A stretch of DNA of 64,000 nt from an uncultured Gammaproteobacteria bacterium (GCA_965231005.1 OZ246405.1:674709-738708), one strand, 5' to 3'. Positions 30,444-55,897 are shown, numbered from the stretch's first letter. The notes: a model not told the origin generated them from the letters alone. Program-made: numbers and translations.

Positions 30444-30453
30444 AAAGAGCATT

Positions 30454-31617: not shown

Positions 31618-31627
31618 GTATTATTTT

Positions 31628-34709: not shown

Positions 34710-34718
34710 CCTAAATAA

Positions 34719-35447
34719 ATGTATATGACTGCACACAAGGTATTAGCCTATATTCCTGCCCGAGCAGGTTCAAAACGACTTCCTGGAAAAAACATAAAAG
34801 ATTTTATGGGAAAGCCGTTGATTGCGTATGCAATTGAGCAAGCACTTGCAATGCCTTTTATTGATCGTGTTATTGTTGATACTGAGTCAGAAGAAATTGC
34901 AGCGATTGCAAAGCAATATGGTGCAGATGTTCCTTTTTTGCGACCAAATGAGCTTGCACAAGATGATTCAAATGTGATTGATACGATTATCTATACACTT
35001 GATCGTTTGAAAGAGGATGAAGGATATGTTCCAACACATTTACTCATTTTGCAGACAACATCACCACTACGAGAACCAGAGGACATTGAACGTTCTTGGA
35101 AAAAAATATTAGAGACAGATGCAACAGCAGTCATAACGGTATGCCAAATACATCCAAAATTGTATAATGTGGACGATGAAGATACGTTGCATTTGGTAAA
35201 TAATTCAGACAATACGTCAACAAATGCACAGGCATGGGATGATGGATTTATTCCAAATGGTGGAGTCTTCATTACAGCAGTTCCAGAACTGTACAGTGAA
35301 CGGACAGTAATGACAAAAAACACAAAGGCAGTTGTATGTCCAAATTGGCGCTCAGTTGATGTTGATATTCCAGAAGAATGGGCAATGGCAGAGGTACTGT
35401 ATAAACATAGAGATGACATTAAAAAACATATTCTAGAATTAGATTAA
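34719..35447 (+). CDS. acylneuraminate cytidylyltransferase family (CMP-ulosonic acid synthetase), copy 2
   Basis: '[31 protein letters not shown]'. Confidence 0.8.
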
Positions 35448-36493: not shown

Positions 36494-36498
36494 ATTGT

Positions 36499-43730: not shown

Positions 43731-43768
43731 CAGATCTGTTATTATAAGTGGTTAATACAGTTAATATT

Positions 43769-44449
43769 ATGAATATTATTGCAATCATCCCTGCTCGTGG
43801 GGGATCAAAGCGGATTGAATCAAAAAATCTTATTGTTGTTGGTGGAAAACCTCTTATTGCGCATAGTATTGAACATGGGATTCAGTCTGCGTTTGTTGAT
43901 AGAGTAATTGTCTCTACAGAAGATGCAGAAATTGCTCGTGTGTCAAAAGAGTATGGTGCAGACGTTATTGATCGTCCTATTGAATTAGCAAATGACATGG
44001 CAAGCAGTGAATCAGCATTAGTTCATGTTCTTGATGAAATTGAAAAACGTGGTGAGCAAATGCCAGATCTTGTTGTATTTATGCAATGTACATCACCAGT
44101 AAGAAAGGCAGATGACATAGACAATGCAGTAAAAACTCTTATAGACGAAGATGCAGACTCTCTTTTATCAGCAGCGAGAAATTTTGGTCTTATTTGGTCA
44201 AAAGGTGAACAAGGGGTACGATCATTAACCTATGACCATAAGACTCGCAAACGCGAGCAAGATATGGATGAACAATATAGAGAAAATGGATCAATTTATG
44301 TTTTCAAACCAGAAATACTTCGTGAACACAATAATCGACTTGGAAAAAAGATTGCAATATATGAAATGGATATGTGGTCTTCTTTTCAAGTAGATGCTCC
44401 AGAAGATGTAGTATTGATTAATTGGATTTTAAAAAATAAAGAAATATAA
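43769..44449 (+). CDS. acylneuraminate cytidylyltransferase family (CMP-ulosonic acid synthetase), copy 3
   Basis: 'IIAIIPARGGSKRIESKNLIVVGGKPLIAHSI'. ATG at 43769; the track start is GTG. Confidence 0.75.
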   Translation: MNIIAIIPARGGSKRIESKNLIVVGGKPLIAHSIEHGIQSAFVDRVIVSTEDAEIARVSKEYGADVIDRPIELANDMASSESALVHVLDEIEKRGEQMPDLVVFMQCTSPVRKADDIDNAVKTLIDEDADSLLSAARNFGLIWSKGEQGVRSLTYDHKTRKREQDMDEQYRENGSIYVFKPEILREHNNRLGKKIAIYEMDMWSSFQVDAPEDVVLINWILKNKEI

Positions 44450-44451
44450 CT

Positions 44452-45285
44452 ATGTCTGCATTAGATACTATTTTTAATATAAAAGGGAAAACAATCTTGA
44501 TTACAGGTGCTACTGGTTTTTTTGGTAAATACATGACCAAGACGTATTTAGATGTTGGTGCAGATGTGATTCTTATGGGGCGTAAAGAAGCACTTGCTGA
44601 GCAAGTCGCATCATACAATAGCGAGTATGGATCTGATCGTGCCTTTGGATATGTTGTTGATTTTTATGATAAAGATATACTTGAAAAAACATTAGAAGAA
44701 ATTGTTTCTAAGCATGATATTGATGTTGTGGTAAACAATGCATATGATTTGAGTGAAAAAACAGGATTTAATACTACAGAGGGAACACTTGAAAAGACAT
44801 CATATGAAATGTGGTCTCATGCATTTGAGTCAGGTATTTATTGGGCAGTTCTCATAACACAAATTGTTGGTGAACATTTTAGAAAAAAGGGAAGTGGAAA
44901 TATTATCAATTTGAGTTCAATGTATGGAATTGTTTCACCACATCCAAATTTATACGAAGGAAAGAAATTTTTTAATCCGCCAACTTATAGCGTGCAAAAA
45001 GCTGGTATAGGTGCGTTAACAAAATACACAGCATCATTTTGGGGGAAACATGGTATTCGATGTAATGCAATCGCTCCTGGTCCTTTTTCCAATACTGAAA
45101 CACAAACAAGTAATAGTGTTGATAAGAATGATCCATTTTTAGATCGATTAAAACAAAAAACAGTTTTACAAAAATTAGGTCATCCAAATGATCTTTCAGG
45201 TGCACTCATCTATCTTGCAAGTGATGCATCAAGCTATGTCACAGGACATACGCTTGTCATAGATGGAGGTTGGACCATAACATAA
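44452..45285 (+). CDS. short-chain dehydrogenase/reductase
   Basis: 'KTILITGATGFFGKYM'; 'YSVQKAGIGALTKY' (YxxxK). Confidence 0.7.
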   Translation: MSALDTIFNIKGKTILITGATGFFGKYMTKTYLDVGADVILMGRKEALAEQVASYNSEYGSDRAFGYVVDFYDKDILEKTLEEIVSKHDIDVVVNNAYDLSEKTGFNTTEGTLEKTSYEMWSHAFESGIYWAVLITQIVGEHFRKKGSGNIINLSSMYGIVSPHPNLYEGKKFFNPPTYSVQKAGIGALTKYTASFWGKHGIRCNAIAPGPFSNTETQTSNSVDKNDPFLDRLKQKTVLQKLGHPNDLSGALIYLASDASSYVTGHTLVIDGGWTIT

Positions 45286-45290
45286 TTACT

Positions 45291-46115
45291 ATGATAGGAA
45301 TTATACAAGGAAGACTAACACAGCCTATTGATGGAAAAATTCAATGTTTTCCATGGGGATTTTGGGAAAAAGAATTTGAAACAGCAAAGGAAATTGGAAT
45401 AGATGCAATTGGCTGGATTTTTGAAGAAGATCGCTGGCAGGAAAATCCACTTTGGACAGAAGATGGAAGGAAAAAATTAAAAGAAATTATAGATCAGACT
45501 GGAGTTATTATTGAATATCTTTGCGCTGATTATTTTATGGAACATCCATTTATTCGTGTAAGTGAAGAAGAATATAAGACCACATGTACAATGCTTTCAG
45601 ATGTTATCGAACGAGCTGCTGATTTGGGTATAAAAGGAATTGAACTTCCAATGGTGGATAATTCAAAGATTGATAATGAACAAGAAAAAGAAAAAGTGAT
45701 TGAAACACTGAGAACATACATTCCACTTATGGAAAAGTACAATATGGAAATAAGTATTGAATCTTCTTTGCCACCACACGATCTTAAAGATTTATTAGAA
45801 CGCTTAGATCATCCATTGTTCTGCATTACATATGATTCAGGAAACAGTTCTTCAATGGGATATGACACAACAGAAGAAATTGAAGCGTTTGGAACATGGA
45901 TCCACAATGTACACATAAAAGATAGATTGTTACATGGAACAACTGTTCAACTTGGAACAGGAGATGCAGATTTTGACAAAACATTTTCAGCACTACAAGC
46001 GATTGGGTATAAAGGTTCATTTACTTTGCAAGCTGCCCGAGATGGTGAAGCAGTAGAAAATACAAAAAATCAATTAGCATTTTTACACAAATACATAGAA
46101 AAGTATATTCAATAG
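45291..46115 (+). CDS. sugar-phosphate isomerase/epimerase (xylose-isomerase-like TIM barrel), putative
   Basis: Composition and size. Acidic metal-site-like residues 'IELPMVD...ISIESS...HNVHIKD'. Weak. Confidence 0.35.
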   Translation: MIGIIQGRLTQPIDGKIQCFPWGFWEKEFETAKEIGIDAIGWIFEEDRWQENPLWTEDGRKKLKEIIDQTGVIIEYLCADYFMEHPFIRVSEEEYKTTCTMLSDVIERAADLGIKGIELPMVDNSKIDNEQEKEKVIETLRTYIPLMEKYNMEISIESSLPPHDLKDLLERLDHPLFCITYDSGNSSSMGYDTTEEIEAFGTWIHNVHIKDRLLHGTTVQLGTGDADFDKTFSALQAIGYKGSFTLQAARDGEAVENTKNQLAFLHKYIEKYIQ

Positions 46116-46116
46116 T

Positions 46117-46890
46117 ATGGAATTAGGTTTGCAAGACAAAGTAGCATTAATAAGTGGTTCTTCACGAGGTATTGGATATGCTGTTGCTACATCAATGTTA
46201 GAACATGGTGCACGGGTTATTATTAATGGGAGAAATAAAGAACAGCTTGATACAGCATATGACGCATTAGTGGCAGCACATGGAAGTGACAATGTTTTTT
46301 CTTTTCTTGGTGACCTTACAAAAGAAGATGATATCAACCGCTGTGTGCAGTTCATTCAGCAGCAGTGTTCAGGACTTGATATCCTTGTTTCCAATATTGG
46401 TTCTGGAAAATCACAGCCTGGTGCTGAAGTAGCATTGGAAGAATGGAAACGGATGTTTGATGTTAATTTTTTTGGTAGTGTTTCTCTTATTCAGGCAATG
46501 ATTTCTATGATGAAAGAAAAGGCGCAAGGATCGATTGTTTGCATTAGTTCAATTGCAGGTCTTGAAACAATTGGAGCACCACTTCCATATGAGGCAGCAA
46601 AAGCAGCACTCATTTCATATGTTCAAGCACTTGCAAAACAGCTCGCGCCAAATATTAGAGTAAATAGTGTTGCCCCTGGAAATATTTTCTTTGCTGGAGG
46701 AAGATGGGAAGAGTTAGTCAACCAAGATTCGTCTGGTGTTCAAAACATGTTAGACAGCAAGGTTCCTATGAAACGATTTGGAACACCAGAAGAAATTGCA
46801 TCAGTTGTTTCGTTTCTTTCATCTCAGCAAGCATCATTTGTAACAGGTGCTACCTGGGTTGCTGATGGGGGACAAACCATAAGTAGATAA
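46117..46890 (+). CDS. short-chain dehydrogenase/reductase
   Basis: 'VALISGSSRGIGYAVA'; 'YEAAKAAL'. Confidence 0.75.
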   Translation: MELGLQDKVALISGSSRGIGYAVATSMLEHGARVIINGRNKEQLDTAYDALVAAHGSDNVFSFLGDLTKEDDINRCVQFIQQQCSGLDILVSNIGSGKSQPGAEVALEEWKRMFDVNFFGSVSLIQAMISMMKEKAQGSIVCISSIAGLETIGAPLPYEAAKAALISYVQALAKQLAPNIRVNSVAPGNIFFAGGRWEELVNQDSSGVQNMLDSKVPMKRFGTPEEIASVVSFLSSQQASFVTGATWVADGGQTISR

Positions 46891-46900
46891 TATAAATACT

Positions 46901-47734
46901 ATGAAACAAGTTCATGATATGTTCAATCTCTCAGGTAAAGTTGCTGTTATTACAGGAGGTGCAGGACTGTTAGGAGTGAAACATGCAGAAGCAATTGCAG
47001 AATATGGTGGAATACCAGTGCTCTTTGACATCAATGAAACACAAGCAAAAGAACGAGCAAAAGAAATTGCTGAGAAATATCAAGTCCAAGCAATTGGTAT
47101 TGGTGGTGACATCACAGATAAACAAGATATTGAACGAGTACGTGATGAATTATTAAAAGAGTTTTCTCACATTGATATTCTCATCAATAATGCAGCAAAT
47201 GATCCAAAAGTAAAAGAAGAAGAAAACCAAATGCCTTGGTCACGATTTGAACAGTTTTCACGAGATGTATGGGATGGTGATATTGCCGTTGGATTGACTG
47301 GAGCATTTCTCTGTGCACAGATCTTTGGAAATGAAATGGCAAAACAGAAAAAGGGTGTGATTCTAAATATTGCCTCTGATTTAGGTGTGATAGCGCCAGA
47401 CCAACGAATTTACAGAAAAGAAAATACTGCTGATGATATGCAACCAGTAAAGCCAGTCACATACTCAGTTGTAAAACATGGACTTATTGGTTTAACAAAA
47501 TATTTAGCAACATATTGGGCAGACAATGGAATTCGGGTAAATGCTATTTCACCCGGGGGAGTGTATAATGGACAACCAGATGCATTTGTTGAAAAATTGG
47601 CACAATTGATCCCACTTGGGAGGATGGCAGATAAGGATGAGTATAAAGCAGCCATTATTTTCCTTGTTTCTGATGCATCAAGCTATATGACAGGTGCAAA
47701 TTTGAATATTGATGGAGGGCGCACTTGTTGGTAA
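46901..47734 (+). CDS. short-chain dehydrogenase/reductase
   Basis: 'VAVITGGAGLLGVKHA'; 'YSVVKHGLIGLTKY'. Confidence 0.75.
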   Translation: MKQVHDMFNLSGKVAVITGGAGLLGVKHAEAIAEYGGIPVLFDINETQAKERAKEIAEKYQVQAIGIGGDITDKQDIERVRDELLKEFSHIDILINNAANDPKVKEEENQMPWSRFEQFSRDVWDGDIAVGLTGAFLCAQIFGNEMAKQKKGVILNIASDLGVIAPDQRIYRKENTADDMQPVKPVTYSVVKHGLIGLTKYLATYWADNGIRVNAISPGGVYNGQPDAFVEKLAQLIPLGRMADKDEYKAAIIFLVSDASSYMTGANLNIDGGRTCW

Positions 47735-47766
47735 TATTAATTATATTTGAACCTTTTTGATACTTA

Positions 47767-47795
47767 TTGACACCTTTTGTAGTGGATGATACTAT
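47767..47795 (+). promoter_or_regulatory. sigma70-like promoter TTGACA-N17-TACTAT
   Basis: TTGACA at 47767-47772, 17-nt spacer, TACTAT at 47790-47795. Lies in a 100-bp gap before 47835. Confidence 0.4.
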
Positions 47796-47834
47796 ATTAA
47801 TTAGTAAATAAACTATCACAGAATATTAGATTTT

Positions 47835-48494
47835 ATGAGCAAAATTCACCCAATTCACGAGCATCTTTTAGACCGATACCCACATCTTGATCGATGTAAA
47901 GATGATATTTTAAATGCATTTCACCTTATCCTTGATTGCTTCAACAACGGAGGAAAACTTTTGGTAATGGGAAATGGTGGATCAAGTGCAGATGCAGAAC
48001 ACATTTGTGCTGAATTAACAAAAGGATGTGTGTTGCAAAGACAACTAAAAGAGAGTGAGCGAGATTTATTTGGAGGTGACGTCGGTATTCTTCCTCAAAT
48101 GTTGCAAAATGGTTTACCAGCATTTTCGCTTGGAGTGTCTCATTCACTCATTAGCGCGTTTATGAATGACGTCCACCCTGAATTTATTTTTGCACAACAG
48201 ATTTGGGTGCATGCAAAAGAAAACGATGTTGTATTGGCATTGTCTACCTCAGGAAATTCACGAAACGTTGTTGCAGGAATTCATACTGCAAAAGCAAGAA
48301 ATATTAAATCAATTGTACTTACTGGTGGAAATCAAAATAATAGATCATCACAATTAGCAGATGTTAGCATTTGTGTTCCAGAATATGAGGTGCATAAAAT
48401 TCAAGAGCTACATCTTCCAGTTTATCATTATTTATGTATGGCAATTGAACATGAGTTTTTTCATGAACATAAAGGATCACATTATCAACAATAA
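47835..48494 (+). CDS. SIS-domain sugar-phosphate isomerase (GmhA-like)
   Basis: 'LLVMGNGGSSADAEHICAEL' and 'VVLALSTSGNSRNVV'. Confidence 0.7.
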   Translation: MSKIHPIHEHLLDRYPHLDRCKDDILNAFHLILDCFNNGGKLLVMGNGGSSADAEHICAELTKGCVLQRQLKESERDLFGGDVGILPQMLQNGLPAFSLGVSHSLISAFMNDVHPEFIFAQQIWVHAKENDVVLALSTSGNSRNVVAGIHTAKARNIKSIVLTGGNQNNRSSQLADVSICVPEYEVHKIQELHLPVYHYLCMAIEHEFFHEHKGSHYQQ

Positions 48495-48519
48495 TTTTTT
48501 TATATTTTAATAAAAACAT

Positions 48520-49359
48520 ATGTCAGCATTTATCATCGCGGAAATAGGAATCAATCATAATGGAAGTTTAGATATTGCAAAGCAGCTTATTGATGGAGCA
48601 AAGCTTGCAGGTTGTGATGCAGTAAAGTTTCAAAAACGAACATTGGAAACAGTATATTCAAAAGAAGATTTAGATAGAGAAAGACAATCACCTTGGGGAA
48701 CAACAAATCGCGAGCAAAAACAAGGATTAGAATTTTCAATTGAGGATTACAAAGAAATTGATAAATACTGTAAAGAAAAAAAGATTGAATGGTTTTTTTC
48801 AGCTTGGGATGTACAAAGTCAAAAAGACATGAGAGTGTTTGATCTAAAATACAATAAAGTTGCATCTCCAATGTTAGGACATACTGAACTTCTTAAAGAA
48901 ATTGCTTCAGAAGGAAAACACACATTTATATCAACAGGCATGTCTTCGCTCGAGGAAATAGATAAGGCAGTTGAAATCTTCAAAAATGCAAACTGTCCAT
49001 TTGAACTTATGCATTGCAACAGTACATATCCTATGAAGAATGAAGATGCAAATCTTCGTGTGATGGACGTTTTGAAGGAACGGTATGGTTGCGATGTTGG
49101 GTATAGTGGTCATGAAGGTGGAAGGATTGTTTCTTTCATGGCATGCGTACTTGGTGCAACATCTCTTGAAAGACATATTACATTAAACAAAGCAATGTAT
49201 GGTTCAGATCAAGCAGCATCTATTTTGATTTACGATTTGTGTAAGTTGGTAAATGATGTTCGTGGTATTGATGCTATTATGGGTGACGGAAAAAAAGAGA
49301 TTCTTGAATCTGAAATGCCGGCAAGAAAAAAACTTCGTTATTACGAACAACAATCATAA
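48520..49359 (+). CDS. NeuB-family ulosonic acid (phosphate) synthase, short form without SAF domain
   Basis: 'FIIAEIGINHNGSLDIAKQLIDGAKLAGCDAVKFQKRT'. Only 279 aa (TIM barrel only). Confidence 0.7.
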   Translation: MSAFIIAEIGINHNGSLDIAKQLIDGAKLAGCDAVKFQKRTLETVYSKEDLDRERQSPWGTTNREQKQGLEFSIEDYKEIDKYCKEKKIEWFFSAWDVQSQKDMRVFDLKYNKVASPMLGHTELLKEIASEGKHTFISTGMSSLEEIDKAVEIFKNANCPFELMHCNSTYPMKNEDANLRVMDVLKERYGCDVGYSGHEGGRIVSFMACVLGATSLERHITLNKAMYGSDQAASILIYDLCKLVNDVRGIDAIMGDGKKEILESEMPARKKLRYYEQQS

Positions 49360-49367
49360 GTAGATAT

Positions 49368-49886
49368 ATGTCTCAAAAAGATATTGTAGAAAAATTAAAA
49401 TTGGTTCAGCTACTTGTTTTAGATTTTGATGGTGTTTTTACAGATGGCTGTGTGTATGTAAATCAAGATGGTGTTGAATCAGTAAAATGTAGCCGAAAGG
49501 ATGGTCTTGGTATTAATCTTTTACACAAGCATGGCCTTGAAGCATTCGTTATCTCAAAAGAAATAAATCCAGTTGTTGCAGCACGTTGCAAAAAATTAGG
49601 GATTCCATGTGTTCAGGGAGTCCACGATAGTGATGGTAAACTAGAAATATTAAAACGAATATTAGATGAAAAGGGTCTTTCTTCAGATCAAATTGCGTAT
49701 ATGGGTGACGATATTAATGACTATGCGTGCATTGAATATGCTGGAGTAGGAATCACAACAAAGGATGGACATGAGTCGCTGCGAGAAATTGCATTATATA
49801 CTACAAATGCGTGTGGAGGAGATCATGCAGTGCGCGAAGTTTGTGAGAAAATATTAAAAGCCAAGGGTATCGTATTGGAATTTTAA
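49368..49886 (+). CDS. HAD-family ulosonate-phosphate phosphatase (KdsC/YrbI-like)
   Basis: 'LLVLDFDGVFTDGCVYV', 'YMGDDINDYAC', 'GGDHAVREVCEKIL' are KdsC-type blocks. Confidence 0.75.
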   Translation: MSQKDIVEKLKLVQLLVLDFDGVFTDGCVYVNQDGVESVKCSRKDGLGINLLHKHGLEAFVISKEINPVVAARCKKLGIPCVQGVHDSDGKLEILKRILDEKGLSSDQIAYMGDDINDYACIEYAGVGITTKDGHESLREIALYTTNACGGDHAVREVCEKILKAKGIVLEF

Positions 49887-49958
49887 TTTTCGTTCTGCGG
49901 TGTAAATAATGCTGCTCATTTTCTTAGATGGAGGATAGGAGGACTGATTGTAATCTTT

Positions 49959-51203
49959 ATGAAGAAGCAAAAGATTTTCTTTATTCCAACATATATAGGT
50001 CCGATTAAACACTACGAGCGTTTGATTCCTTATCTTCAAGATACATATGATGTTGAATTTTTGATTGTACGTCCAGAGAGTTCTCAACGGAAGGAATCCG
50101 TGGAATATTGCAAAGAAAAAAAATACACATACCATATTATTGACAAAGGAATTACAAGAGATATTGGTATTCGAATCCCCTTTTTCACACCGATTAAAAA
50201 GAGATACGAACATGCTATAGCTTGTCGTAATTTTTTAAAAACACATGAGGCCGCAAAAATTATTTCCCACAAGTCATCATCTCCATATGACTCTCTTTTT
50301 AGAGAGGCAAATAGACTTGGAATAGAAACGATTGTGCTTCAATGGTCATCGGCTGCGAGTATAATAGAACAAGACAAGCGTGTAAATTCTTTCGTTCAGA
50401 AGACGTACTTGTTCTTTTTAAAGGTAATTTTTGCTTTACTGGATCTTTTTTACAAAGAATCTCGTTTTGGATATAAAACAGCCATTCCTAAAAAAATTGG
50501 GGTTTTCGACAAAATAAAAAAAGAGTATTATATCGGAGAAGGGTTTGATCCCAAAATCATAGATATTGTTGGGTCTATTGATTTTCAATTATTGTATGAA
50601 TTAAGAAAAAGAATAGACACAGATTCACGTTTGAGAGAGTCATTGCTCGAAAAATATGGACTTTCTAAAAATAAGATTAATATTGTCGTCATTCTGTATC
50701 GTTTTTATATGGCGCCAGACAAAAAATACAAGATGACAATTGATGAGCATGTCTCACATTATTATGATTTGTTTAAGAGTATCCGAGAAGTTTTTTCGGA
50801 GGAGGAAGCAAACGTTTTGCTGAAGATGCATCCAACAGAAAATAGAATGCCCGAGCTGTATCATTCGTATAAAGAGCTTGGTGTACAATTATTTTATGGT
50901 GATGCAAAAACAGATGAGCTTGTATGTTTGTCTGATCTCTATATTTCTGAGCCTGCATCAAGTGTAAACTATATGGTACTCGGAAGTAATACACCATCAA
51001 TTTTTGTTAATCTTTCCGAATTTGAATTTCTCAATAATCGAGCACAATATTTTAACATTACCCATATAGCAACTAGTCGAGAAGGATTTATCAGAAAATT
51101 AAAAGAGTTTAAGAATGGAACACTTGAAAGACAATACAACACAGACGATATTGAACTAAGATCCATTGATAAGACAGTATCTTTTATCAAAAAGAATATA
51201 TGA
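49959..51203 (+). CDS. GT-B-fold TagF/KpsC-like transferase; paralogue 4 of 4 (putative)
   Basis: 'NIVVILYRFYMAPDKK' resembles the TagF 'ILYAPT' block. Similar size and context. Confidence 0.3.
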   Translation: MKKQKIFFIPTYIGPIKHYERLIPYLQDTYDVEFLIVRPESSQRKESVEYCKEKKYTYHIIDKGITRDIGIRIPFFTPIKKRYEHAIACRNFLKTHEAAKIISHKSSSPYDSLFREANRLGIETIVLQWSSAASIIEQDKRVNSFVQKTYLFFLKVIFALLDLFYKESRFGYKTAIPKKIGVFDKIKKEYYIGEGFDPKIIDIVGSIDFQLLYELRKRIDTDSRLRESLLEKYGLSKNKINIVVILYRFYMAPDKKYKMTIDEHVSHYYDLFKSIREVFSEEEANVLLKMHPTENRMPELYHSYKELGVQLFYGDAKTDELVCLSDLYISEPASSVNYMVLGSNTPSIFVNLSEFEFLNNRAQYFNITHIATSREGFIRKLKEFKNGTLERQYNTDDIELRSIDKTVSFIKKNI

Positions 51204-51892
51204 ATATCATGGCAGTTATTCCCGCAAGGAGTGGTTCAAAGGGAGTAAAGGACAAAAATATAAGAAAAATTCTTGGAAAAGAATTGCTTGGATATGCAAT
51301 TGATTTTGCAAAAAAACTCGAGGTTGATTCTATCTTTTGTTCAACTGATTCGCCTGTGTATGCAGATATAGCAAAGAGTCATGGTGCAGATGTACCTTTT
51401 TTGCGTTCAAAAGAAGCTGCAAGAGACACAGCAATGGAACAAGATATTCTTGAAGATTTATATAACAAATTTGATGAACACAGTATTGCGTATCCAGATT
51501 TATTTGTTTGGCTCCGTCCTACATTTTTGTTTAGAGATATTGCTGCAGTAAAGGAGTGTATCAAAAAAATGGTTGATGATCCTTCTTTAACAGCATGCAG
51601 AGTTGTTACAGAGACAGAATCTCGTTTATATACTGGTGATAATGGAATGCTCAAACCAGATTTTAATGATAATGGAGCATCGATGGCAAGACGACAAGAT
51701 GTTCCGACAAAGTATAAGGTGTATAACACAGATGTATTTCGGGGGAATCCAAAAAATTGTGGTCCAAATTTTTTAGGAAATGCTGTCGGATATGTTGTCG
51801 CAGGGAAATTATCTGGGATTGATATTGATGATGAAACTGATTTTTTAATTGCATCTCATTTATTAAAAGGATTAGGTCATGAGTATTTGTAA
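51200..51892 (+). CDS. acylneuraminate cytidylyltransferase family (CMP-ulosonic acid synthetase), copy 4
   Basis: 'MAVIPARSGSKGVKDKNIRKILGKELLGYAI'. ATGA overlap. Confidence 0.75.
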   Translation: MNIMAVIPARSGSKGVKDKNIRKILGKELLGYAIDFAKKLEVDSIFCSTDSPVYADIAKSHGADVPFLRSKEAARDTAMEQDILEDLYNKFDEHSIAYPDLFVWLRPTFLFRDIAAVKECIKKMVDDPSLTACRVVTETESRLYTGDNGMLKPDFNDNGASMARRQDVPTKYKVYNTDVFRGNPKNCGPNFLGNAVGYVVAGKLSGIDIDDETDFLIASHLLKGLGHEYL

Positions 51893-52553
51893 AGATATAC
51901 AACAAAAGATAGAAGCCCAGTTGGAAAATATTTTGTCACTTCGCGCAGATAGAGATCTTAAAGATGACAAAAGTTTTGTAACAAAAGGTGACTTACTGTG
52001 CCAAGATATTATTGTTGAACATATACAGTCTCTTGAAACACCTTTTGAAATAATTTCTGAAGAGATTGATCTTGGGACATTTGCATACGACAAAGAAAAA
52101 AACTATGTTATAGTAGATCCTATTGATGGAACAGAGAATTTCACTTCTGGATTGCGAGAGTGGGGGATTTCAATAGCTATTTATGAAAAAGGAACACATG
52201 TAGAATCAATGCTTGGTTTACCAGAGCTTAATGTATGGCTTCATACTGGTGATACTATTCAAAAGTACGAATCTCGGATTTTAGGACTTTCTTCGTCTCT
52301 TTCAAAAGACGATATGAATAATATCCCAAGGGGGCCAGAGTACAGAATAATTGGCTGTTGCGTTTATAACGTGTATAATGCTATAACCGGTTCTTTTGCC
52401 TCATTTGAGAATGTAAAAGGGGCGAATACATGGGATATTCTTGCAGGGTGTAATCTTGCTCTGGAGCATGGGAGAAAGGTGACTGTAGATGGAAAACCCT
52501 ATGCAGGAGAATTTCTTTCACCAAACAAAAAATATTTATTTAAGATAGGATAA
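51879..52553 (+). CDS. inositol-monophosphatase-family (IMPase/SuhB/CysQ) sugar-phosphate phosphatase
   Basis: 'IISEEID', 'VIVDPIDGTENF', 'TWDILAGCNLALEHG' (WDxAAG). Confidence 0.65.
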   Translation: MSICKDIQQKIEAQLENILSLRADRDLKDDKSFVTKGDLLCQDIIVEHIQSLETPFEIISEEIDLGTFAYDKEKNYVIVDPIDGTENFTSGLREWGISIAIYEKGTHVESMLGLPELNVWLHTGDTIQKYESRILGLSSSLSKDDMNNIPRGPEYRIIGCCVYNVYNAITGSFASFENVKGANTWDILAGCNLALEHGRKVTVDGKPYAGEFLSPNKKYLFKIG

Positions 52554-52561
52554 TAACCAAT

Positions 52562-53413
52562 ATGGAAGATAAAGTTATTATTGTTGCAGAGATAACAACA
52601 AATCATTTGGGGGACATAGAGAGACTCAAAAAAATGGTTCGTCTTTCAAAAGAAGCAGGCGCAGATTTGGTAAAAATACAAAGACGAACTGTTGAAACAT
52701 TTTATCCACCAGGACAGTTGGATAAGCCATATGATTCTCCATTTGGAAGTACGTATAGAGATTTTAGACATGGACTAGAACTTTCTATGGAAGATATGCA
52801 TGCGTTTGACCAAGAATGCAAACGGTTAGATATTGATTGGTTTTCTACGATTTTAGATTTTGAATCTTATGAATTGTTAGAACCATTTCAAAAACGCATA
52901 TTAAAAATTCCATCAACCATTTCTAAACATACAGCATTTCATAAAAAGATTGCTGAAAAACACAAAGGTCCTATTGTTGTTTCTACTGGATTTACTGATC
53001 AAGCATATGAAGATTATGTCATGGAAACATTTAAAGATAATGAAAAGATTTATCTACTTCAGACTACATCAGCATATCCAACTCCACCAGAAGATTGTCT
53101 TATTTCAGTGATAAGACATTATAGTAAGCTTAGTGAAAAGAATCCAAAAATTGTTCCAGGATATTCGGGTCATGATATCGGATCACTTGGATTTATGCTT
53201 GCTGTTGCAGCTGGTGCAAAAATGATTGAAAAGCATGTAAAGCTTGGTGATACTGAATGGATGCATTTCCAAGATGTTGCTGTTGATTTGGAAAATGGAG
53301 ATTTTGCAAAGTTTGTTCAAGACGTGCGTAAAGCTGAAAAAATGTGTGGAAGCGAAAAAAAGGAAATCAAATCTACAGAACATCATAAGTATGATTATAT
53401 TCCAGAAGTTTAA
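52562..53413 (+). CDS. NeuB-family ulosonic acid (phosphate) synthase, short form without SAF domain, copy 4
   Basis: 'IIVAEITTNHLGDIERLKKMVRLSKEAGADLVKIQRRT'. Only 283 aa. Confidence 0.65.
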   Translation: MEDKVIIVAEITTNHLGDIERLKKMVRLSKEAGADLVKIQRRTVETFYPPGQLDKPYDSPFGSTYRDFRHGLELSMEDMHAFDQECKRLDIDWFSTILDFESYELLEPFQKRILKIPSTISKHTAFHKKIAEKHKGPIVVSTGFTDQAYEDYVMETFKDNEKIYLLQTTSAYPTPPEDCLISVIRHYSKLSEKNPKIVPGYSGHDIGSLGFMLAVAAGAKMIEKHVKLGDTEWMHFQDVAVDLENGDFAKFVQDVRKAEKMCGSEKKEIKSTEHHKYDYIPEV

Positions 53414-53431
53414 TGTTGCTTGACAAAAATA

Positions 53432-53459
53432 AAATCCAGCATATGCTGGGTTTTTTGTT
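53432..53459 (+). terminator. rho-independent terminator ending the 53-kb + strand array
   Basis: AAAAUCCAGCAU/AUGCUGGGUUUUUU: palindrome CCAGCATATGCTGG followed by T6. Lies 19 nt after the stop at 53413. Confidence 0.55.
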
Positions 53460-53471
53460 TATATAGGTTGT

Positions 53472-53510
53472 GGACCAGCTCGCTTCGACAATGTCGGGCG
53501 AGCTGGTCCT
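53472..53510. repeat. GC-rich perfect 12-bp-stem hairpin at the low-GC/high-GC junction
   Basis: GGACCAGCTCGC-N15-GCGAGCTGGTCC. The loop contains CGACA.TGTCG. Sits 10 nt 3' of the minus-strand stop at 53520. No flanking U-tract on either strand. Confidence 0.5.
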
Positions 53511-53519
53511 GGTTGCTGA

Positions 53520-54458
53520 TTAGAGCAGGGTTTTCTTGGTCTTGTTTTGGTTTGCCATCTTCACTACGCCTTCCCACGTGGACTGGTCCGTGAGTGTGAA
53601 CGCGATCAAGAATCCTGGGAGTGAGAGAACTTTTCCGATTGTGAGCGGTTCGTTGTAGATGATTACACCGAGCATTGTTGCAGCACCGATGTACACGCTC
53701 CACATCACCAGTTTTTTTGCCGCAATTGAACTACCGTCTTTGTAGCTAAGGAGCTTGAACGGAATCATCACGACCACAACAAGGCTAATCAGGATGGCCG
53801 CTGTCCAAAAGCCTGTTGACAGTGAGCCAACGTATGCCCAGCCTCCGAGGACGCTGAGGGACAGTACGCAGCAGAGTATTGTTGAAGATCCGACCCAAAA
53901 GTTATTCACAAAAGGATCGGCCTTTCTAATCTTGCGCGTAATTGCCTCGTTGAGTACTGCGAAGAAGGGGAGACTGATTGCCAGCCAAACCCAGGTTGAG
54001 AGGTTCAGAAATTCTGCGAGCGATGGAAAGTTCAGTATTGCATATCCTGCAATCAGGAAGACTGCAATCCCACACCACTGACGGATTCTCAATTTGTCTC
54101 CAAAGAAAATCCAGTCAACAAAAGCGCCAGGAATAATGGACATCCCACCGATGAATGTGACAACACCGATGTCTGCCCCTTCGTACGTGAATGTCATGAA
54201 GCTGATGACTGTCATGATTGTGGCAACAGCACCAAAGGCCATTGAGCCAGCAATCTGAGTCGCCGGAGCGCGAAGCTGCTTTTTTCTGACAGAAGAACCA
54301 ACAACGCCGCTGAGCATCTGTATGATTCCAATGACAAGTGTTGCTAAAAATGTACCAGGAAGGTTTTTTGAAGCTACTCCAATTATCTTGATGAGCAACT
54401 TGCTGATGGTCTTGGAAATACCTTCGCCAACTGCCCACTTGATCCACGAGTTGTTCAT
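53520..54458 (-). CDS. multi-pass membrane protein (possible DMT/EamA-like transporter), in GC-rich island
   Basis: 312 aa with about 10 hydrophobic segments. GC-rich codon usage unlike the rest of the window. Confidence 0.45.
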   Translation of the reverse strand: MNNSWIKWAVGEGISKTISKLLIKIIGVASKNLPGTFLATLVIGIIQMLSGVVGSSVRKKQLRAPATQIAGSMAFGAVATIMTVISFMTFTYEGADIGVVTFIGGMSIIPGAFVDWIFFGDKLRIRQWCGIAVFLIAGYAILNFPSLAEFLNLSTWVWLAISLPFFAVLNEAITRKIRKADPFVNNFWVGSSTILCCVLSLSVLGGWAYVGSLSTGFWTAAILISLVVVVMIPFKLLSYKDGSSIAAKKLVMWSVYIGAATMLGVIIYNEPLTIGKVLSLPGFLIAFTLTDQSTWEGVVKMANQNKTKKTLL

Positions 54459-54602
54459 AGGATCCTCCGTGCTTTAGCATCCAAAATGGAAATGCTCTTC
54501 ATAATTTTCCATGGTTGAAAAACTATGAAGACAAGGCTACCGGCAGCACACAAGTGTGTACCGGTAGCCTGTTGCTGCAAGCAGCAGTCCTCCTTGGGGC
54601 CG

Positions 54603-55610
54603 TCAGTCAGCCTTCATCTCCTCGAGCAGTCGGCGGGCCACGGCCATGGGAGCGCCACCATCGCGGCCGTCCCAGTCGCGCACCTGCTCCAGGCACTTGA
54701 TCGCCTTGGCGCGCATACCCTTCTGGTCGAGGGCGCCGGCCTTCAGCAGCAGGCAGGTGAGAAGGGTGTTGGCGATCGAGCTCGACTTGGTGTCACCGAA
54801 CTCGGCAAGACCAGCGTCGGCCTGTTCGATCACACCGTTCCAGTCGTCGGCCTTCATAAGCGGGATGAGTTTGCCAACGCTCGACCAGTGGTTGTCCACG
54901 TGGAGCATGTAGGCCTCGTCCACATCCTTGCCGTCGTAGTCATCTCCGCCGGCGAGCATGTTGGCCCACAGGTTGTGCAGCGAGGCATTGCCCTTCATCC
55001 AGCCGGTGTAGCCGCCGTGCAGCGCTTGGATCTGCCGGCAGACGCCGAGCTGGTGTTCGAAGGCAGCCAGGATCTGGTCGTGGTCGTCCGTCACCAGCGC
55101 AGCAGTCGTACGTTCGACAGCAGCGATGTACATGGCAGTCATCACCTTCTCGGCAGCACCACCTGCCTGCGTCGCGTACAGCGCACTCATCTCCTGCGCA
55201 TGCGCAGCACCCAGGTAGTTGCGCTGACCGCGCCGGATCAGGCCGATGTTGTACCAGACCAGGCTGATGGCCAGGAGCTGCTTGGGCGTGACATCGAGCT
55301 CGTCGTGCATGCGGCTCAGGAGGCCGCTGAGGTCTTCCATTGCCTGCGTCAGATCGATGTCCGGATCGCGGCGCGCTGCACTGATCTGCTTTTCGATGCA
55401 GACCAGCTCGAGCGCAGTGTTGCCAGCGAGGCCGAACTGCACGCGCGCGTAGGCGTAGCTCTTCGCGACCTTGTCCGGATCCTTCATGAGCAGATCGTAG
55501 AGGCCAGAGGTTCGCTCGTCCAGGAAGTCAGGCTGCTCTGTGCCCATGGTGAAAAGCTGCTGACCGAGATCTTCTGCGGTCTGCGTGGTATCAAGTTGCG
55601 GCGTCGTCAT
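54603..55610 (-). CDS. hypothetical cytoplasmic protein in GC-rich island
   Basis: Balanced, protein-like composition. The overlapping + strand ORF is V/L/R/H-rich antisense. Strong RBS GGGGGT 5 nt before the ATG at 55610; the track start at 55700 is GTG in AT-rich DNA. Confidence 0.45.
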   Translation of the reverse strand: MTTPQLDTTQTAEDLGQQLFTMGTEQPDFLDERTSGLYDLLMKDPDKVAKSYAYARVQFGLAGNTALELVCIEKQISAARRDPDIDLTQAMEDLSGLLSRMHDELDVTPKQLLAISLVWYNIGLIRRGQRNYLGAAHAQEMSALYATQAGGAAEKVMTAMYIAAVERTTAALVTDDHDQILAAFEHQLGVCRQIQALHGGYTGWMKGNASLHNLWANMLAGGDDYDGKDVDEAYMLHVDNHWSSVGKLIPLMKADDWNGVIEQADAGLAEFGDTKSSSIANTLLTCLLLKAGALDQKGMRAKAIKCLEQVRDWDGRDGGAPMAVARRLLEEMKAD

Positions 55611-55897
55611 GACTACCCCCTTGTTTTTTTGCTGAGGCATACCCGTATACAGCCTTTTTTGAAATGAACAGACAGCATGCGGGAATCTGTCTCCTGACAC
55701 TAATTCGTCAGTTGGGTATACTACAATACTTTTTTCCTTTTGTCAATATTACTATTTTGTGTATTTTTAGCCAAAAAAATGGCTTTTTTACCCTTTTTTT
55801 CAGAATATCAGCCAAATAGGAGATTTTTATTAATTTTTCCTCATATTCTTTTTTTGAAATAAGATGTTTTTTTGTTCATTTTTACTTTAAATTTACC

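What the first reader, a model, noticed from the sequence alone, without database searches (positions are those of the whole stretch)
47835..53413. Phosphorylated-intermediate ulosonate routes using SAF-less NeuB homologues and two different phosphatase families
One unit is a GmhA-like SIS isomerase, a short 279-aa NeuB homologue and a KdsC/YrbI-type HAD phosphatase (47835..49886). The other is a NeuA-like CMP-transferase, an IMPase-family phosphatase and a second short 283-aa NeuB homologue (51200..53413). Aldose-phosphate + PEP to ulosonate-phosphate to ulosonate is the logic of KDN-9-P/Neu5Ac-9-P synthase pathways. Here the aldose-P would come from a SIS isomerase; if it is truly GmhA-like, the product could be a heptose-7-P-derived deca-ulosonic acid, which would be unusual. 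Using an IMPase-family enzyme as the dedicated phosphatase in the second unit is also unusual. Both synthases lack the C-terminal SAF domain present in characterised NeuB/PseI/LegI.
Basis: inference. Interest (0 to 1): 0.65.

Follow-up and report, generated by a model that had tools for sequence, protein, structure and literature searches.

The report
Two phosphate-route ulosonic acid sugar modules
Inside a giant cell-surface sugar gene cluster sit two small gene sets that most likely each build an activated sialic-acid-like sugar through a phosphorylated intermediate. One uses the usual KdsC-type phosphatase; the other uses a dedicated phosphatase of the inositol-monophosphatase family, a pairing not described before.

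Summary
All seven ORFs lie at the stated coordinates with the stated domains, and both NeuB homologues (279 and 283 aa) end right after the TIM barrel, with no room for a SAF domain.

- SAF-less NeuBs are not rare. About 30% of bacterial NeuBs lack SAF, one such structure is solved (6NCS), and the characterised Prymnesium Kdn-9-P synthetase is SAF-less. That enzyme is closer to both short NeuBs than to the two SAF-bearing NeuBs in this window.
- Unit 1 is larger than stated (43748-49886). The order CMP-transferase, SDR, xylose-isomerase-like TIM barrel, two SDRs, GmhA-family SIS, NeuB recurs in Gemmatimonas. These partners recur around NeuBs1 relatives in bacteria, archaea and viral contigs. 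KdsC~SIS and CMP-transferase~KdsC fusions occur elsewhere.
- Unit 2 is a conserved operon. An IMPase-like gene sits directly upstream of the NeuBs2 homologue in 71 of 80 metagenome loci. Its catalytic motifs are invariant, and a CMP-transferase~IMPase-like fusion exists. It is not SuhB or CysQ.
- The SIS protein keeps all GmhA catalytic residues but scores below the GmhA cut-off. A heptose-derived C10 acid remains speculative.

The products are unknown; Kdn-like sugars are the best guess. I rate this a new variant of a known kind.

The parts
43748..44449 (+). CMP-ulosonate synthetase candidate of unit 1 (CTP_transf_3, 233 aa)
   Evidence: Pfam CTP_transf_3 93 bits. 34% identical over 221 aa to the characterised P. 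parvum CMP-Kdn synthetase, the best of the four cytidylyltransferases in the window. Co-occurs with NeuBs1 homologues.
44452..45285 (+). SDR oxidoreductase (PtmA-like, 277 aa)
   Evidence: Pfam adh_short_C2. NCBIfam PRK09186 149 bits and FlagModPtmA 114 bits, both below cut-off. Found next to NeuBs1 homologues mainly in viral contigs.
45270..46115 (+). Xylose-isomerase-like TIM barrel, closest to L-ribulose-5-phosphate 3-epimerase (called from 45291 in the public contig)
   Evidence: Pfam AP_endonuc_2 92.8 bits. NCBIfam L-ribulose-5-P 3-epimerase 72 bits, below cut-off. In 24 of 80 genome loci with a NeuBs1 homologue. A NeuB fused to a COG1082 domain is required for Kdn/Neu5Ac capsule in Serratia marcescens (PMC9000132).
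46117..46890 (+). SDR oxidoreductase (257 aa)
   Evidence: Pfam adh_short_C2 193 bits. Recurs in 18-19 of 80 genome loci, usually between the TIM-barrel gene and the next SDR.
46901..47734 (+). SDR oxidoreductase (PtmA-like, 277 aa), the most conserved tailoring partner
   Evidence: Pfam adh_short_C2 155 bits. phmmer scores of 270-400 bits against neighbours of NeuBs1 homologues in 25-26 of 80 genome loci and 15 of 80 viral loci.
47767..47795 (+). Promoter-like site in the 100-bp gap before the SIS gene
   Evidence: TTGACA-17-TACTAT with an upstream TG, 10 of 12. Weak evidence: the number of such sites in the region is not above the shuffles.
47835..48494 (+). GmhA-family SIS sugar-phosphate isomerase (219 aa) with a 26-aa insertion after helix 2
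   Evidence: Pfam SIS_2/SIS. gmhA TIGR00441 125.8 bits against cut-off 209.45; DiaA 80 against 352. Equivalents of E. coli GmhA S55, H61, E65, D94, S119-T120-S121, S124, Q172 and H180 are all present; R69 is Gly. Relatives are fused to KdsC in at least 9 loci.
48520..49359 (+). NeuBs1: SAF-less NeuB-family PEP-condensing synthase (279 aa)
   Evidence: Pfam NeuB 222.5 bits, residues 23-259. 36% identical to the P. parvum Kdn-9-P synthetase. Closest solved structure is 6NCS, a 290-aa SAF-less enzyme. More than 8000 homologues, 67-79% identical across phyla.
49368..49886 (+). KdsC/YrbI-type HAD phosphatase (172 aa)
   Evidence: TIGR01670 110.3 bits against cut-off 106.95; KdsC equivalog 119.6 against 208; KDN-9-P phosphatase 93.6 against 180. 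32% identical to BT1713. DxDGV and GDDxND motifs are visible in the sequence. Next to NeuBs1 homologues in 47 of 80 genome loci at domain level.
49897..49915 (+). Terminator-like hairpin after the KdsC gene
   Evidence: 7-bp stem followed by a T-rich tail. Weak evidence: counts are not above the shuffles.
49959..51203 (+). 414-aa protein of unknown family between the two units. Candidate transferase (inference only).
   Evidence: No Pfam or NCBIfam family. A homologue (398 bits) sits directly upstream of the CTP/IMPase/NeuBs2 trio in metagenome locus L169.
51200..51892 (+). Cytidylyltransferase of unit 2 (CTP_transf_3, 230 aa; only the N-terminal half matches known models)
   Evidence: Pfam CTP_transf_3 63.7 bits, residues 4-96; PseF 82 bits against cut-off 205.7. 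A cytidylyltransferase lies within 3 kb of NeuBs2 homologues in 64 of 80 loci.
51879..52553 (+). IMPase-family phosphatase (224 aa), the dedicated partner of NeuBs2
   Evidence: Pfam Inositol_P 66.6 bits. SuhB 30 against 332, CysQ 46 against 229, HisN 48 against 275. EE61-62, D80-P-I-D-G-T-E-N-F and W185-D186 are invariant in 57 homologues. Directly upstream of the NeuBs2 homologue in 71 of 80 loci. Only 41 clusters at E<=1e-30 among 1.84 billion representatives; one is a cytidylyltransferase fusion.
52562..53413 (+). NeuBs2: second SAF-less NeuB-family synthase (283 aa)
   Evidence: Pfam NeuB 157 bits, residues 25-267. Best relatives on one BLAST scale: NeuBs1 145, P. parvum Kdn-9-P synthetase 111, PseI 70, SAF paralogues 59 and 44 bits. 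The family is smaller, with 567 hits.
53431..53454 (.). Bidirectional terminator-like hairpin ending the + strand gene string
   Evidence: 10-bp stem with 4 GC pairs and T tracts on both strands, 18 bp after the NeuBs2 stop.

Best explanation
The region holds two separate modules that each make a CMP-activated 3-deoxy-2-ulosonic acid (Kdn-like) through a phosphorylated intermediate. The products feed the surface-glycan polymer encoded by the surrounding ~54-kb cluster.

Module 1 (43748-49886):
- A GmhA-family SIS isomerase turns a ketose phosphate into the aldose phosphate.
- NeuBs1 condenses the aldose phosphate with PEP.
- The KdsC-type HAD phosphatase removes the terminal phosphate.
- The cytidylyltransferase at 43748 activates the acid.
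- The xylose-isomerase-like barrel (a ketose-phosphate 3-epimerase relative) and three SDRs set or alter the stereochemistry or oxidation state. They act either on the sugar phosphate before condensation or on the acid afterwards.

Module 2 (51200-53413):
- The same three core steps, carried out by NeuBs2, an IMPase-family phosphatase that replaces KdsC, and its own cytidylyltransferase.
- It takes a sugar phosphate directly from central metabolism.

Shown: the domain content, the absence of SAF, the conserved synteny, the fusions and the intact catalytic motifs. Inferred: the order of the steps, the use of phosphorylated substrates, and the identity of the sugars.
For: (1) Relationship to a characterised enzyme.
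- The characterised P. parvum Kdn-9-P synthetase uses Man-6-P and not mannose (PMC6200933). It is SAF-less (312 aa, translated from the paper's supplement).
- It scores 147 bits against NeuBs1 and 111 bits against NeuBs2, but only 86 and 64 bits against the window's SAF-bearing NeuBs.
- All SAF-less sequences aligned share K-x-Q-[KR]-R where the SAF-bearing ones have K-x-Q-T-H.

(2) Module 1 partners.
- Among 80 genome loci with a NeuBs1 homologue, 47 carry KdsC, 30 SIS, 24 the TIM barrel and 26 the 46901-type SDR.
- Gemmatimonas (L062) has the same gene order as the window.
- KdsC~SIS fusions occur in at least 9 loci and CTP~KdsC fusions in 3.
- The lower-scoring NeuBs1 relatives, about 50% identical (Acidobacteria, Melainabacteria, Muribaculaceae), mostly have KdsC as the only partner detected: 24 of 30 loci have KdsC and 7 have SIS. 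This resembles the B. thetaiotaomicron BT1713/BT1714 Kdn pair. SIS is commoner among the closer relatives, 23 of 50 loci.

(3) Module 2 partners.
- The IMPase-like ORF ends within 150 nt upstream of the NeuBs2 ORF in 71 of 80 metagenome loci. Seven of the nine exceptions have no room on the contig.
- The trio also occurs in Demequina and, alone, in a phage.
- The metal-binding and catalytic motifs are invariant in 57 homologues.
- The subfamily is small and distinct from canonical IMPases.
- P0370 fuses a cytidylyltransferase to the IMPase-like domain. This mirrors the CTP~KdsC fusions and places the phosphatase next to the activation step.

(4) The SIS protein keeps every GmhA catalytic residue.

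(5) The genes are tightly packed and co-directional, and the string ends at a hairpin.
Against: - No enzyme of either module has been assayed, and identities to characterised enzymes are low (27-36%).
- The closest solved structures (6NCS; PseI 8H2C) have no known or no phosphorylated substrate.
- In viral contigs NeuBs1 homologues usually lack KdsC (2 of 80) and SIS (8 of 80). The phosphatase is therefore either dispensable or supplied elsewhere.
- An IMPase-family enzyme could equally dephosphorylate a sugar phosphate before condensation.
- Most NeuBs2 homologues carry an extra N-terminal domain of about 200 aa and unknown function. It is missing here, so the window's version may not be fully equivalent.
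- The roles of the TIM barrel and the SDRs are guesses.
Confidence: 0.6

Rival explanations
1. Module 1 makes a ten-carbon acid. The SIS protein is a true sedoheptulose-7-P isomerase. NeuBs1 condenses D-glycero-D-manno-heptose-7-P with PEP to give a 3-deoxy-dec-2-ulosonate 10-phosphate. This is then dephosphorylated and CMP-activated.
For: - GmhA is always the best family match for the SIS protein and its NeuB-associated relatives, and all GmhA catalytic residues are kept.
- The NeuBs1 relatives that look like the known Man-6-P/Kdn pair mostly have KdsC as the only detected partner (SIS in 7 of 30 loci, against 23 of 50 among closer relatives). This is what one expects if SIS supplies an aldose phosphate that housekeeping metabolism does not provide.
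- CMP-activated ulosonic acids with a C10 backbone have been reported by mass spectrometry in Magnetospirillum (bioRxiv 10.64898/2026.04.20.719630).
Against: - The window SIS scores 126 bits and nine NeuB-associated relatives 131-202 bits (seven of them 161-202), against the gmhA cut-off of 209.45. E. coli GmhA scores 280.
- R69 is Gly, and a 26-aa insertion follows the catalytic helix.
- No heptose kinase or GmhB was found in the annotated window.
- By simple stereochemical analogy, a GmhA-like enzyme acting on fructose-6-P would give mannose-6-P, the known Kdn precursor (inference).
- The Magnetospirillum C10 acids are di-N-acylated Leg/Pse-like sugars, a different chemistry.
Confidence: 0.12
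2. Phosphatase-first route. The IMPase-like enzyme (and possibly the KdsC-like one) frees an aldose from a sugar phosphate. The short NeuBs then condense the free sugar with PEP, as bacterial NeuB, PseI and LegI do.
For: - The IMPase family includes sugar-1-phosphate phosphatases (own knowledge).
- The module lacks a NeuC-type enzyme to supply a free aldose, so some other source would be needed.
- NeuBs2's best solved relative is PseI, which uses an unphosphorylated sugar.
Against: - On one scale, NeuBs2 is closer to the Man-6-P-dependent P. parvum enzyme (111 bits) than to PseI (70 bits).
- The phosphatases are fused to the cytidylyltransferase (CTP~KdsC, CTP~IMPase-like). This fits the last two steps of a pathway better than its first and last steps.
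- The KdsC family is known for ulosonate-phosphate substrates (BT1713, KdsC).
Confidence: 0.18
3. The adjacency is accidental. The SIS protein is a DiaA-like non-enzyme, the IMPase homologue is housekeeping SuhB/CysQ, and the short NeuBs are decayed copies.
For: None beyond the weak family scores.
Against: - DiaA 80 bits against 352, SuhB 30 against 332, CysQ 46 against 229.
- Catalytic residues are intact.
- Synteny in 71 of 80 loci, plus fusions.
- The short NeuBs are 67-79% conserved across phyla at the same length.
Confidence: 0.03

Closest known systems
CMP-Kdn pathway of Bacteroides thetaiotaomicron (BT1714 Kdn-9-P synthase, BT1713 Kdn-9-P phosphatase, BT1715 CMP-Kdn synthetase) and of Prymnesium parvum
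   Same: - A NeuB-family synthase that takes a phosphorylated aldose plus PEP, a KdsC/YrbI-type HAD phosphatase, and a NeuA-type cytidylyltransferase.
- The P. parvum synthetase is also SAF-less.
- Module 1 has all three parts. Identities are 36% (synthase), 32% (phosphatase) and 34% (cytidylyltransferase).
   Different: - Module 1 adds a GmhA-family isomerase, a ketose-phosphate-epimerase-like TIM barrel and three SDRs that the Kdn pathway does not need.
- The phosphatase scores below the KDN-9-P phosphatase equivalog cut-off.
- Module 2 replaces the HAD phosphatase with an IMPase-family enzyme.
- The substrate and product are untested.
Kdo pathway (KdsD, KdsA, KdsC, KdsB)
   Same: Identical logic: SIS isomerase, PEP aldol condensation on a sugar phosphate, KdsC phosphatase, CMP activation. 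The phosphatase belongs to the same YrbI subfamily.
   Different: - The condensing enzyme here is NeuB-family, not KdsA/DAHP-synthase family.
- The isomerase is GmhA-type (SIS_2), not KdsD/KpsF-type. KdsD scores 28 bits against a cut-off of 505.
Animal Neu5Ac route (NANS, NANP, CMAS)
   Same: A phosphorylated intermediate and a dedicated phosphatase. CMAS carries a KdsC-like C-terminal domain (own knowledge), paralleling the CTP~KdsC and CTP~IMPase-like fusions seen here.
   Different: NANS keeps the antifreeze-like/SAF domain. NANP is a HAD enzyme, not an IMPase-family one.
Serratia marcescens KL1/KL2 capsule NeuB fused to a COG1082 sugar-phosphate isomerase/epimerase domain (PMC9000132)
   Same: It links a NeuB synthase to a xylose-isomerase-like barrel, as in module 1. 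That locus yields Kdn and Neu5Ac and needs neuB.
   Different: It is a fusion protein, whereas here the genes are separate. I could not retrieve its sequence, so the relationship of its NeuB part to NeuBs1 is untested.
GmhA (sedoheptulose-7-phosphate isomerase)
   Same: Best family match, same fold family, and all catalytic residues kept.
   Different: It scores below the equivalog cut-off, R69 is Gly, there is a 26-aa insertion, and its genomic partners are NeuB, KdsC and CMP-transferase instead of heptose kinase, GmhB and nucleotidyltransferase.

Membership tests
NeuB / sialic acid synthase family (PF03102) | NeuB TIM-barrel domain above the Pfam gathering score | tested here: met
   222.5 and 157.1 bits against a cut-off of 22.1, covering profile positions 1-241 of 241 in both proteins.
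NeuB / sialic acid synthase family (PF03102) | C-terminal SAF (antifreeze-like) domain, as in characterised NeuB, PseI and LegI | tested here: not met
   No SAF hit. Only 20 and 16 residues follow the barrel. The window's other two NeuBs do hit SAF.
N-acetylneuraminate synthase (TIGR03569) / pseudaminic acid synthase (TIGR03586) equivalogs | Score above the curated equivalog cut-off | tested here: not met
   NeuBs1 scores 235 against 399.65 and 174 against 340.25. NeuBs2 scores 143 against 399.65 and 131 against 340.25.
Kdn-9-phosphate synthase (BT1714 / P. parvum type) | Closer to a characterised Kdn-9-P synthase than to synthases of unphosphorylated sugars | tested here: inconclusive
   - The P. 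parvum enzyme scores 147 and 111 bits against the short NeuBs, and 86 and 64 bits against the SAF paralogues.
- NeuBs2 scores 111 against the P. parvum enzyme and 70 against PseI.
- NeuBs1 is about equally close to Leptospira 6NCS (140 bits), whose substrate is unknown.
- Identities are only 27-36%.
Kdn-9-phosphate synthase (BT1714 / P. parvum type) | Activity on mannose-6-phosphate + PEP and none on free mannose | not testable with these tools
   Needs an enzyme assay.
KdsC/YrbI HAD phosphatase subfamily (TIGR01670) | Score above the subfamily cut-off, with HAD motifs | tested here: met
   110.3 bits against 106.95. DFDGVFTDG and GDDINDY are present in the translation.
KdsC (Kdo-8-P phosphatase) and BT1713-type KDN-9-P phosphatase equivalogs | Score above the equivalog cut-off | tested here: not met
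   119.6 against 208 and 93.6 against 180.
GmhA (sedoheptulose-7-phosphate isomerase) | Catalytic residues E65, Q172 and H180, plus D94 and the phosphate-binding Ser/Thr cluster | tested here: met
   All are present in the window protein and in at least 37 of the 40 sequences aligned against E. coli GmhA (the window SIS plus 39 NeuB-associated relatives), except S119, which is Ser in 31 and Thr in 8. R69 is Gly in the window protein (residue roles from PMC4697000).
GmhA (sedoheptulose-7-phosphate isomerase) | Score above the curated equivalog cut-off | tested here: not met
   125.8 bits against 209.45. NeuB-associated relatives score 131-202. The E. coli GmhA control scores 280.
GmhA (sedoheptulose-7-phosphate isomerase) | Genomic association with the other nucleotide-heptose genes (heptose kinase, GmhB, nucleotidyltransferase) | tested here: not met
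   Pfam annotation of the window's 62 non-nested ORFs of at least 120 aa found no sugar kinase and no GmhB.
DiaA (non-catalytic SIS protein) | Score above the DiaA equivalog cut-off | tested here: not met
   80.1 bits against 352.
Inositol monophosphatase family (PF00459) | Pfam gathering score and the two metal-binding signature motifs | tested here: met
   66.6 bits against 27. EE, DPIDGTENF and WD are invariant in 57 synteny-defined homologues.
SuhB / CysQ / HisN housekeeping IMPase-family enzymes | Score above the respective equivalog cut-offs | tested here: not met
   30.4 against 332, 46.2 against 228.8, and 48.4 against 275.15. Canonical IMPases match only the N-terminal ~100 residues.
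CMP-nonulosonate synthetase (CTP_transf_3) | Pfam domain above the gathering score | tested here: met
   93 bits (43748) and 63.7 bits (51200) against a cut-off of 22.6. The PseF equivalog is not reached: 135 and 82 against 205.7.

The most novel reading that the evidence does not exclude
The widespread SIS + SAF-less NeuB + KdsC module, present here and in many bacteria, archaea and viruses, does not make Kdn. Instead it makes a previously undescribed higher-carbon or stereo-variant ulosonic acid, for example a heptose-7-P-derived 3-deoxy-dec-2-ulosonic acid. The IMPase-linked NeuB trio makes a second undescribed acid.
Probability: 0.12. Interest if true: 0.85.

Novelty: new variant of a known kind. 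Interest (0 to 1): 0.55.

Why it matters
Sialic-acid-like sugars decorate microbial surfaces and shape recognition by hosts, phages and immune systems. The only characterised bacterial route through a phosphorylated intermediate known to me is the Kdn pathway of one Bacteroides species.

The comparative data here point to two things.
- A much larger, uncharacterised family of such modules runs through bacteria, archaea and viruses. It combines a SAF-less NeuB with KdsC, a GmhA-like isomerase, an epimerase-like barrel and SDRs.
- A second NeuB subfamily is almost always paired with its own IMPase-family phosphatase. This looks like a non-orthologous replacement of the pathway phosphatase.

If confirmed, this would give gene-level markers for predicting new ulosonic acids from genomes. 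It would also explain the 'missing' Kdn-9-P phosphatase in some organisms and supply simple three-enzyme cassettes for making CMP-activated acids.

Tried and rejected
- I suspected the SIS protein was a PtmF-like enzyme of the legionaminic acid route. Rejected: PtmF is annotated as an oxidoreductase of 326 aa, not a SIS protein.
- From sequence motifs (GxGPS...GFDF) I guessed that the ~200-aa N-terminal domain of most NeuBs2 homologues was CstII/GT42- or Maf-like.
  - It has no Pfam hit and no PDB sequence hit.
  - A confident AF2 model (pLDDT 87.8) finds nothing in the PDB at E<=0.001, with TM no higher than 0.34.
  - The domain is absent from the window.
- I looked for an IMPase gene in the Streptomyces coelicolor teichulosonic (Kdn) cluster. 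The literature lists only NeuE-like, NeuA and NeuB, and the primary paper is not held.
- I searched for fusions of NeuB with the xylose-isomerase-like barrel, using the barrel as query. None appear in the top 120 hits, so the Serratia fusion is more distant.
- PHROGs has no family for the phage copies of the trio. Only 3 GenBank phage records match either NeuB.
- The two unknown proteins (414 and 508 aa) are not detectably related to each other. The 508-aa one has only a sub-threshold Capsule_synth hint.
- Promoter and terminator scans give plausible sites at the unit borders, but the totals are no higher than in shuffled sequence.
- Literature searches for the combined gene set found no description of either module.

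Full report
**Setting**

The window has about 34% G+C. From its start to 53.4 kb it is one unbroken + strand string of glycan genes. From left to right it encodes:
- methyltransferases, two GT4 glycosyltransferases, a phosphopantetheinyl transferase, an FkbH-like protein, MaoC, an SDR, an MBOAT and two GDSL proteins;
- 2-hydroxyacid dehydrogenases, a nucleotidyltransferase, two TylF methyltransferases, two asparagine-synthase-like amidotransferases, a glycerate-kinase-like protein, a CDP-alcohol phosphatidyltransferase and two TagF-like proteins;
- two classical nonulosonate units, each with a SAF-bearing NeuB, a NeuC-like 2-epimerase and a cytidylyltransferase (29265-32332 and 34719-37650);
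- an ABC exporter (39567), and then the region in question.

The exact proteins also occur on independent metagenome contigs and on a 1.23-Mb contig. The nearest named homologues are from Patescibacteria. A candidate-phyla-radiation genome is therefore likely, but this is an inference.

**Observation**

The two NeuB homologues consist of the NeuB barrel only. Four points show that this is their native form.
- The flanking DNA leaves no space for a SAF domain.
- Homologues of the same length number in the hundreds to thousands.
- In an alignment, the window's own SAF-bearing paralogues extend about 65-75 residues further.
- The KdsC-like protein passes the YrbI subfamily cut-off but neither the KdsC nor the KDN-9-P phosphatase equivalog. 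The IMPase-like protein passes Pfam Inositol_P but is far from SuhB, CysQ and HisN. The SIS protein is GmhA-like but below the cut-off.

**SAF-less NeuBs are not unusual**

A large survey reports that about 30% of 13,941 bacterial NeuB sequences lack SAF and that they cluster among environmental organisms (PMC8208679). The closest solved structure to NeuBs1 is 6NCS, a 290-aa Leptospira enzyme without SAF.

More important is the Prymnesium parvum Kdn-9-P synthetase, which was shown to use Man-6-P and not mannose (PMC6200933). I translated its sequence from the paper's supplement. It is 312 aa and SAF-less. On one BLAST scale:
- it scores 147 bits against NeuBs1 and 111 bits against NeuBs2;
- it scores 86 and 64 bits against the SAF-bearing paralogues;
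- NeuBs2's own ranking is NeuBs1 145, P. parvum 111, PseI 70, 6NCS 65, SAF paralogues 59 and 44.

All SAF-less sequences in the alignment share K-x-Q-[KR]-R where the SAF-bearing ones have K-x-Q-T-H. The meaning of this motif is unknown.

**Module 1 is bigger than stated and widely conserved**

NeuBs1 belongs to a very large family. More than 8000 hits passed the threshold, and 596 genome stretches were recovered. Identity is 67-79% across Patescibacteria, Spirochaetes, Clostridia, Nitrosopumilus, Thermoplasmatales, SAR11, SAR116 and Prochlorococcus. There are also 219 stretches in viral contigs.

I searched the window's proteins against all ORFs of 80 genome loci. Domain-level counts were:

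| Partner of NeuBs1 homologue | Loci out of 80 |
|---|---|
| KdsC | 47 |
| SIS | 30 |
| Xylose-isomerase-like barrel | 24 |
| 46901-type SDR | 26 |
| 46117-type SDR | 19 |
| Cytidylyltransferase | 39 |

Further points on conservation:
- A Gemmatimonas contig has the window's exact order: CTP, SDR, barrel, SDR, SDR, SIS, NeuB.
- KdsC and SIS are fused in one polypeptide in at least 9 loci. Cytidylyltransferase and KdsC are fused in 3.
- Other genomes add a class-III aminotransferase, a methyltransferase and sometimes a radical-SAM enzyme.
- The lower-scoring relatives, about 50% identical (Acidobacteria, Melainabacteria, Muribaculaceae), mostly have KdsC as the only partner detected: 24 of 30 loci have KdsC and 7 have SIS. 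This is the arrangement of the B. thetaiotaomicron Kdn pair. SIS is commoner among the closer relatives, 23 of 50 loci.
- In Serratia marcescens, a NeuB fused to a COG1082 (xylose-isomerase-like) domain is required for a capsule containing Kdn and Neu5Ac (PMC9000132).

The barrel's best named relatives are L-ribulose-5-phosphate 3-epimerases. This suggests it acts on a ketose phosphate.

**The SIS protein**

I aligned it with E. coli GmhA and 39 NeuB-associated relatives. The window protein keeps S55, H61, E65, D94, S119-T120-S121, S124, Q172 and H180. R69 is Gly, and a 26-aa insertion follows helix 2. That insertion is shared with only one relative (residue roles from PMC4697000).

It is therefore very probably an active isomerase and not a DiaA-like protein. 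However, it scores 126 bits on the gmhA model, and nine NeuB-associated relatives score 131-202 bits, seven of them 161-202. The cut-off is 209.45, and the E. coli control scores 280.

The substrate is open. By stereochemical analogy, a GmhA-type reaction on fructose-6-P would give mannose-6-P (inference). The relative scarcity of SIS in the simple NeuB+KdsC loci is the one observation that favours an unusual aldose phosphate.

**Module 2**

NeuBs2 belongs to a smaller family of 567 hits. In 80 metagenome loci:
- An IMPase-like ORF ends within 150 nt upstream of the NeuB ORF, on the same strand, in 71. Seven of the nine exceptions have no room on the contig.
- A cytidylyltransferase lies within 3 kb in 64.

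The trio also occurs in the actinobacterium Demequina oxidasica, beside a GT29-like protein (weak sialyltransferase-family hit) and a second short NeuB. It occurs with no other sugar gene in a phage.

For the IMPase-like proteins:
- 57 near-full-length homologues keep EE, DPxDGTxNF and WD invariant.
- Among 1.84 billion representative proteins, only 41 match at E<=1e-30 and 107 at E<=1e-10. Ordinary IMPases match only the N-terminal third.
- One representative, P0370, is a cytidylyltransferase fused to this IMPase-like domain. This is the same kind of fusion seen between cytidylyltransferase and KdsC.

Together these results show a dedicated pathway phosphatase and exclude a housekeeping role. 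They do not prove that it acts after the condensation, but the fusion to the activating enzyme favours that order.

Most NeuBs2 homologues (59 of 80) carry an extra N-terminal domain of about 200 aa. The window's copy and the phage copy lack it. Its AF2 model is confident, but it has no significant relative in the PDB.

**Mechanism proposed**

Both modules run sugar phosphate + PEP -> ulosonate phosphate -> ulosonate -> CMP-ulosonate.
- Module 1 makes its own aldose phosphate through the SIS enzyme and tailors it with the barrel and SDRs.
- Module 2 draws on a common sugar phosphate. The phage copy shows that three genes are enough in a host background.
- The 414-aa protein (49959) and the 508-aa protein (41471) are candidate transferases, from position only.
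- The string ends at a bidirectional hairpin at 53431-53454. A promoter-like site precedes the SIS gene. The scan totals are not above chance.

**Comparison with what is known**

- The logic matches the Kdo, bacterial/algal Kdn and animal Neu5Ac routes.
- Module 1 is best filed as an elaborated relative of the BT1713-1715 Kdn pathway.
- Module 2 follows the same scheme with a phosphatase from a different superfamily.
- I found no description of either gene set in the searchable literature.

**Verdict**

- The pathway logic is well supported by comparative evidence, but it is biochemically untested.
- The 'unusual' lack of SAF is ordinary.
- The IMPase pairing is the most original element.
- The deca-ulosonic acid idea remains a low-probability speculation.

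Noticed in passing
window 29265-37650 together with 43748-53413: One cluster carries four NeuB paralogues (two with SAF, each beside a NeuC-like 2-epimerase; two without SAF) and four NeuA-type cytidylyltransferases. That is up to four different CMP-ulosonates, in what is probably a ~1.2-Mb Patescibacteria genome.
   Followed up: partly
window 53400-55750, minus strand: This is a compositional island in a 34% GC genome. The 312-aa membrane-protein gene (53520-54458) has 46-51% GC. The 365-aa ORF (54603-55700) has 60-67% GC and no Pfam, NCBIfam or phage match. A 380-aa ORF (54525-55667) overlaps it on the + strand, so the coding strand is uncertain. It looks like a recent foreign insertion just after the glycan operon.
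   Followed up: partly
L085/L086 5946-9525; L087 and L248 (IMGVR_UViG_3300001847_000530): A phage carries the IMPase-like / short NeuB / cytidylyltransferase trio inside its replication and nucleotide-metabolism module. The neighbours are DNA polymerase B, primase, a short ThyA-like protein, dCMP deaminase, a DNA methyltransferase, UvsX, DnaB and ThyX. Having ThyA-like and ThyX together hints at a pyrimidine hydroxymethylase, so a sugar modification of DNA is conceivable. This is pure speculation.
   Followed up: partly
P0143, P0144, P0147, P0193 and 59 of 80 loci L168-L247: Most NeuBs2 homologues have an N-terminal Rossmann-like domain of about 200 aa, with conserved GxG...ND...GFDF motifs. 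It has no Pfam family and no significant PDB fold match. It is absent from the window.
   Followed up: yes
L007, L008, L013, L015, L019, L020, L021, L032, L056 (KdsC~SIS); L031, L070, L074 (CTP~KdsC); P0370 (CTP~IMPase-like): Pathway enzymes are fused in other genomes. These fusions are useful Rosetta-stone links between the isomerase, phosphatase and activation steps.
   Followed up: yes
L034 4209-7011, L040 8923-12149, L015 10609-14610: In other phyla the NeuBs1 module also contains a class-III aminotransferase, a SAM methyltransferase and, in one case, a B12-binding radical-SAM enzyme. This implies amino- and methyl-substituted versions of the same acid.
   Followed up: partly
L088-L167 (viral contigs): NeuBs1 homologues occur in 219 viral-contig stretches. 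They usually sit with a cytidylyltransferase, often with the TIM barrel and SDRs, but almost never with KdsC (2 of 80) and rarely with SIS (8 of 80).
   Followed up: partly
window 5103-13632: The left part of the cluster encodes a phosphopantetheinyl transferase, an FkbH-like glyceryl-loading protein, MaoC, an SDR, an MBOAT and two GDSL proteins. This suggests a carrier-protein-dependent O-acylation system for the polymer.
   Followed up: no
window 21409-27553 and 33288-34709: A glycerate-kinase-like protein (DUF4147/MOFRL), a KduI-like protein, a GH57-like protein, a CDP-alcohol phosphatidyltransferase and three TagF-like glycerophosphotransferase homologues suggest a teichoic- or teichulosonic-acid-like polymer.
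   Followed up: no
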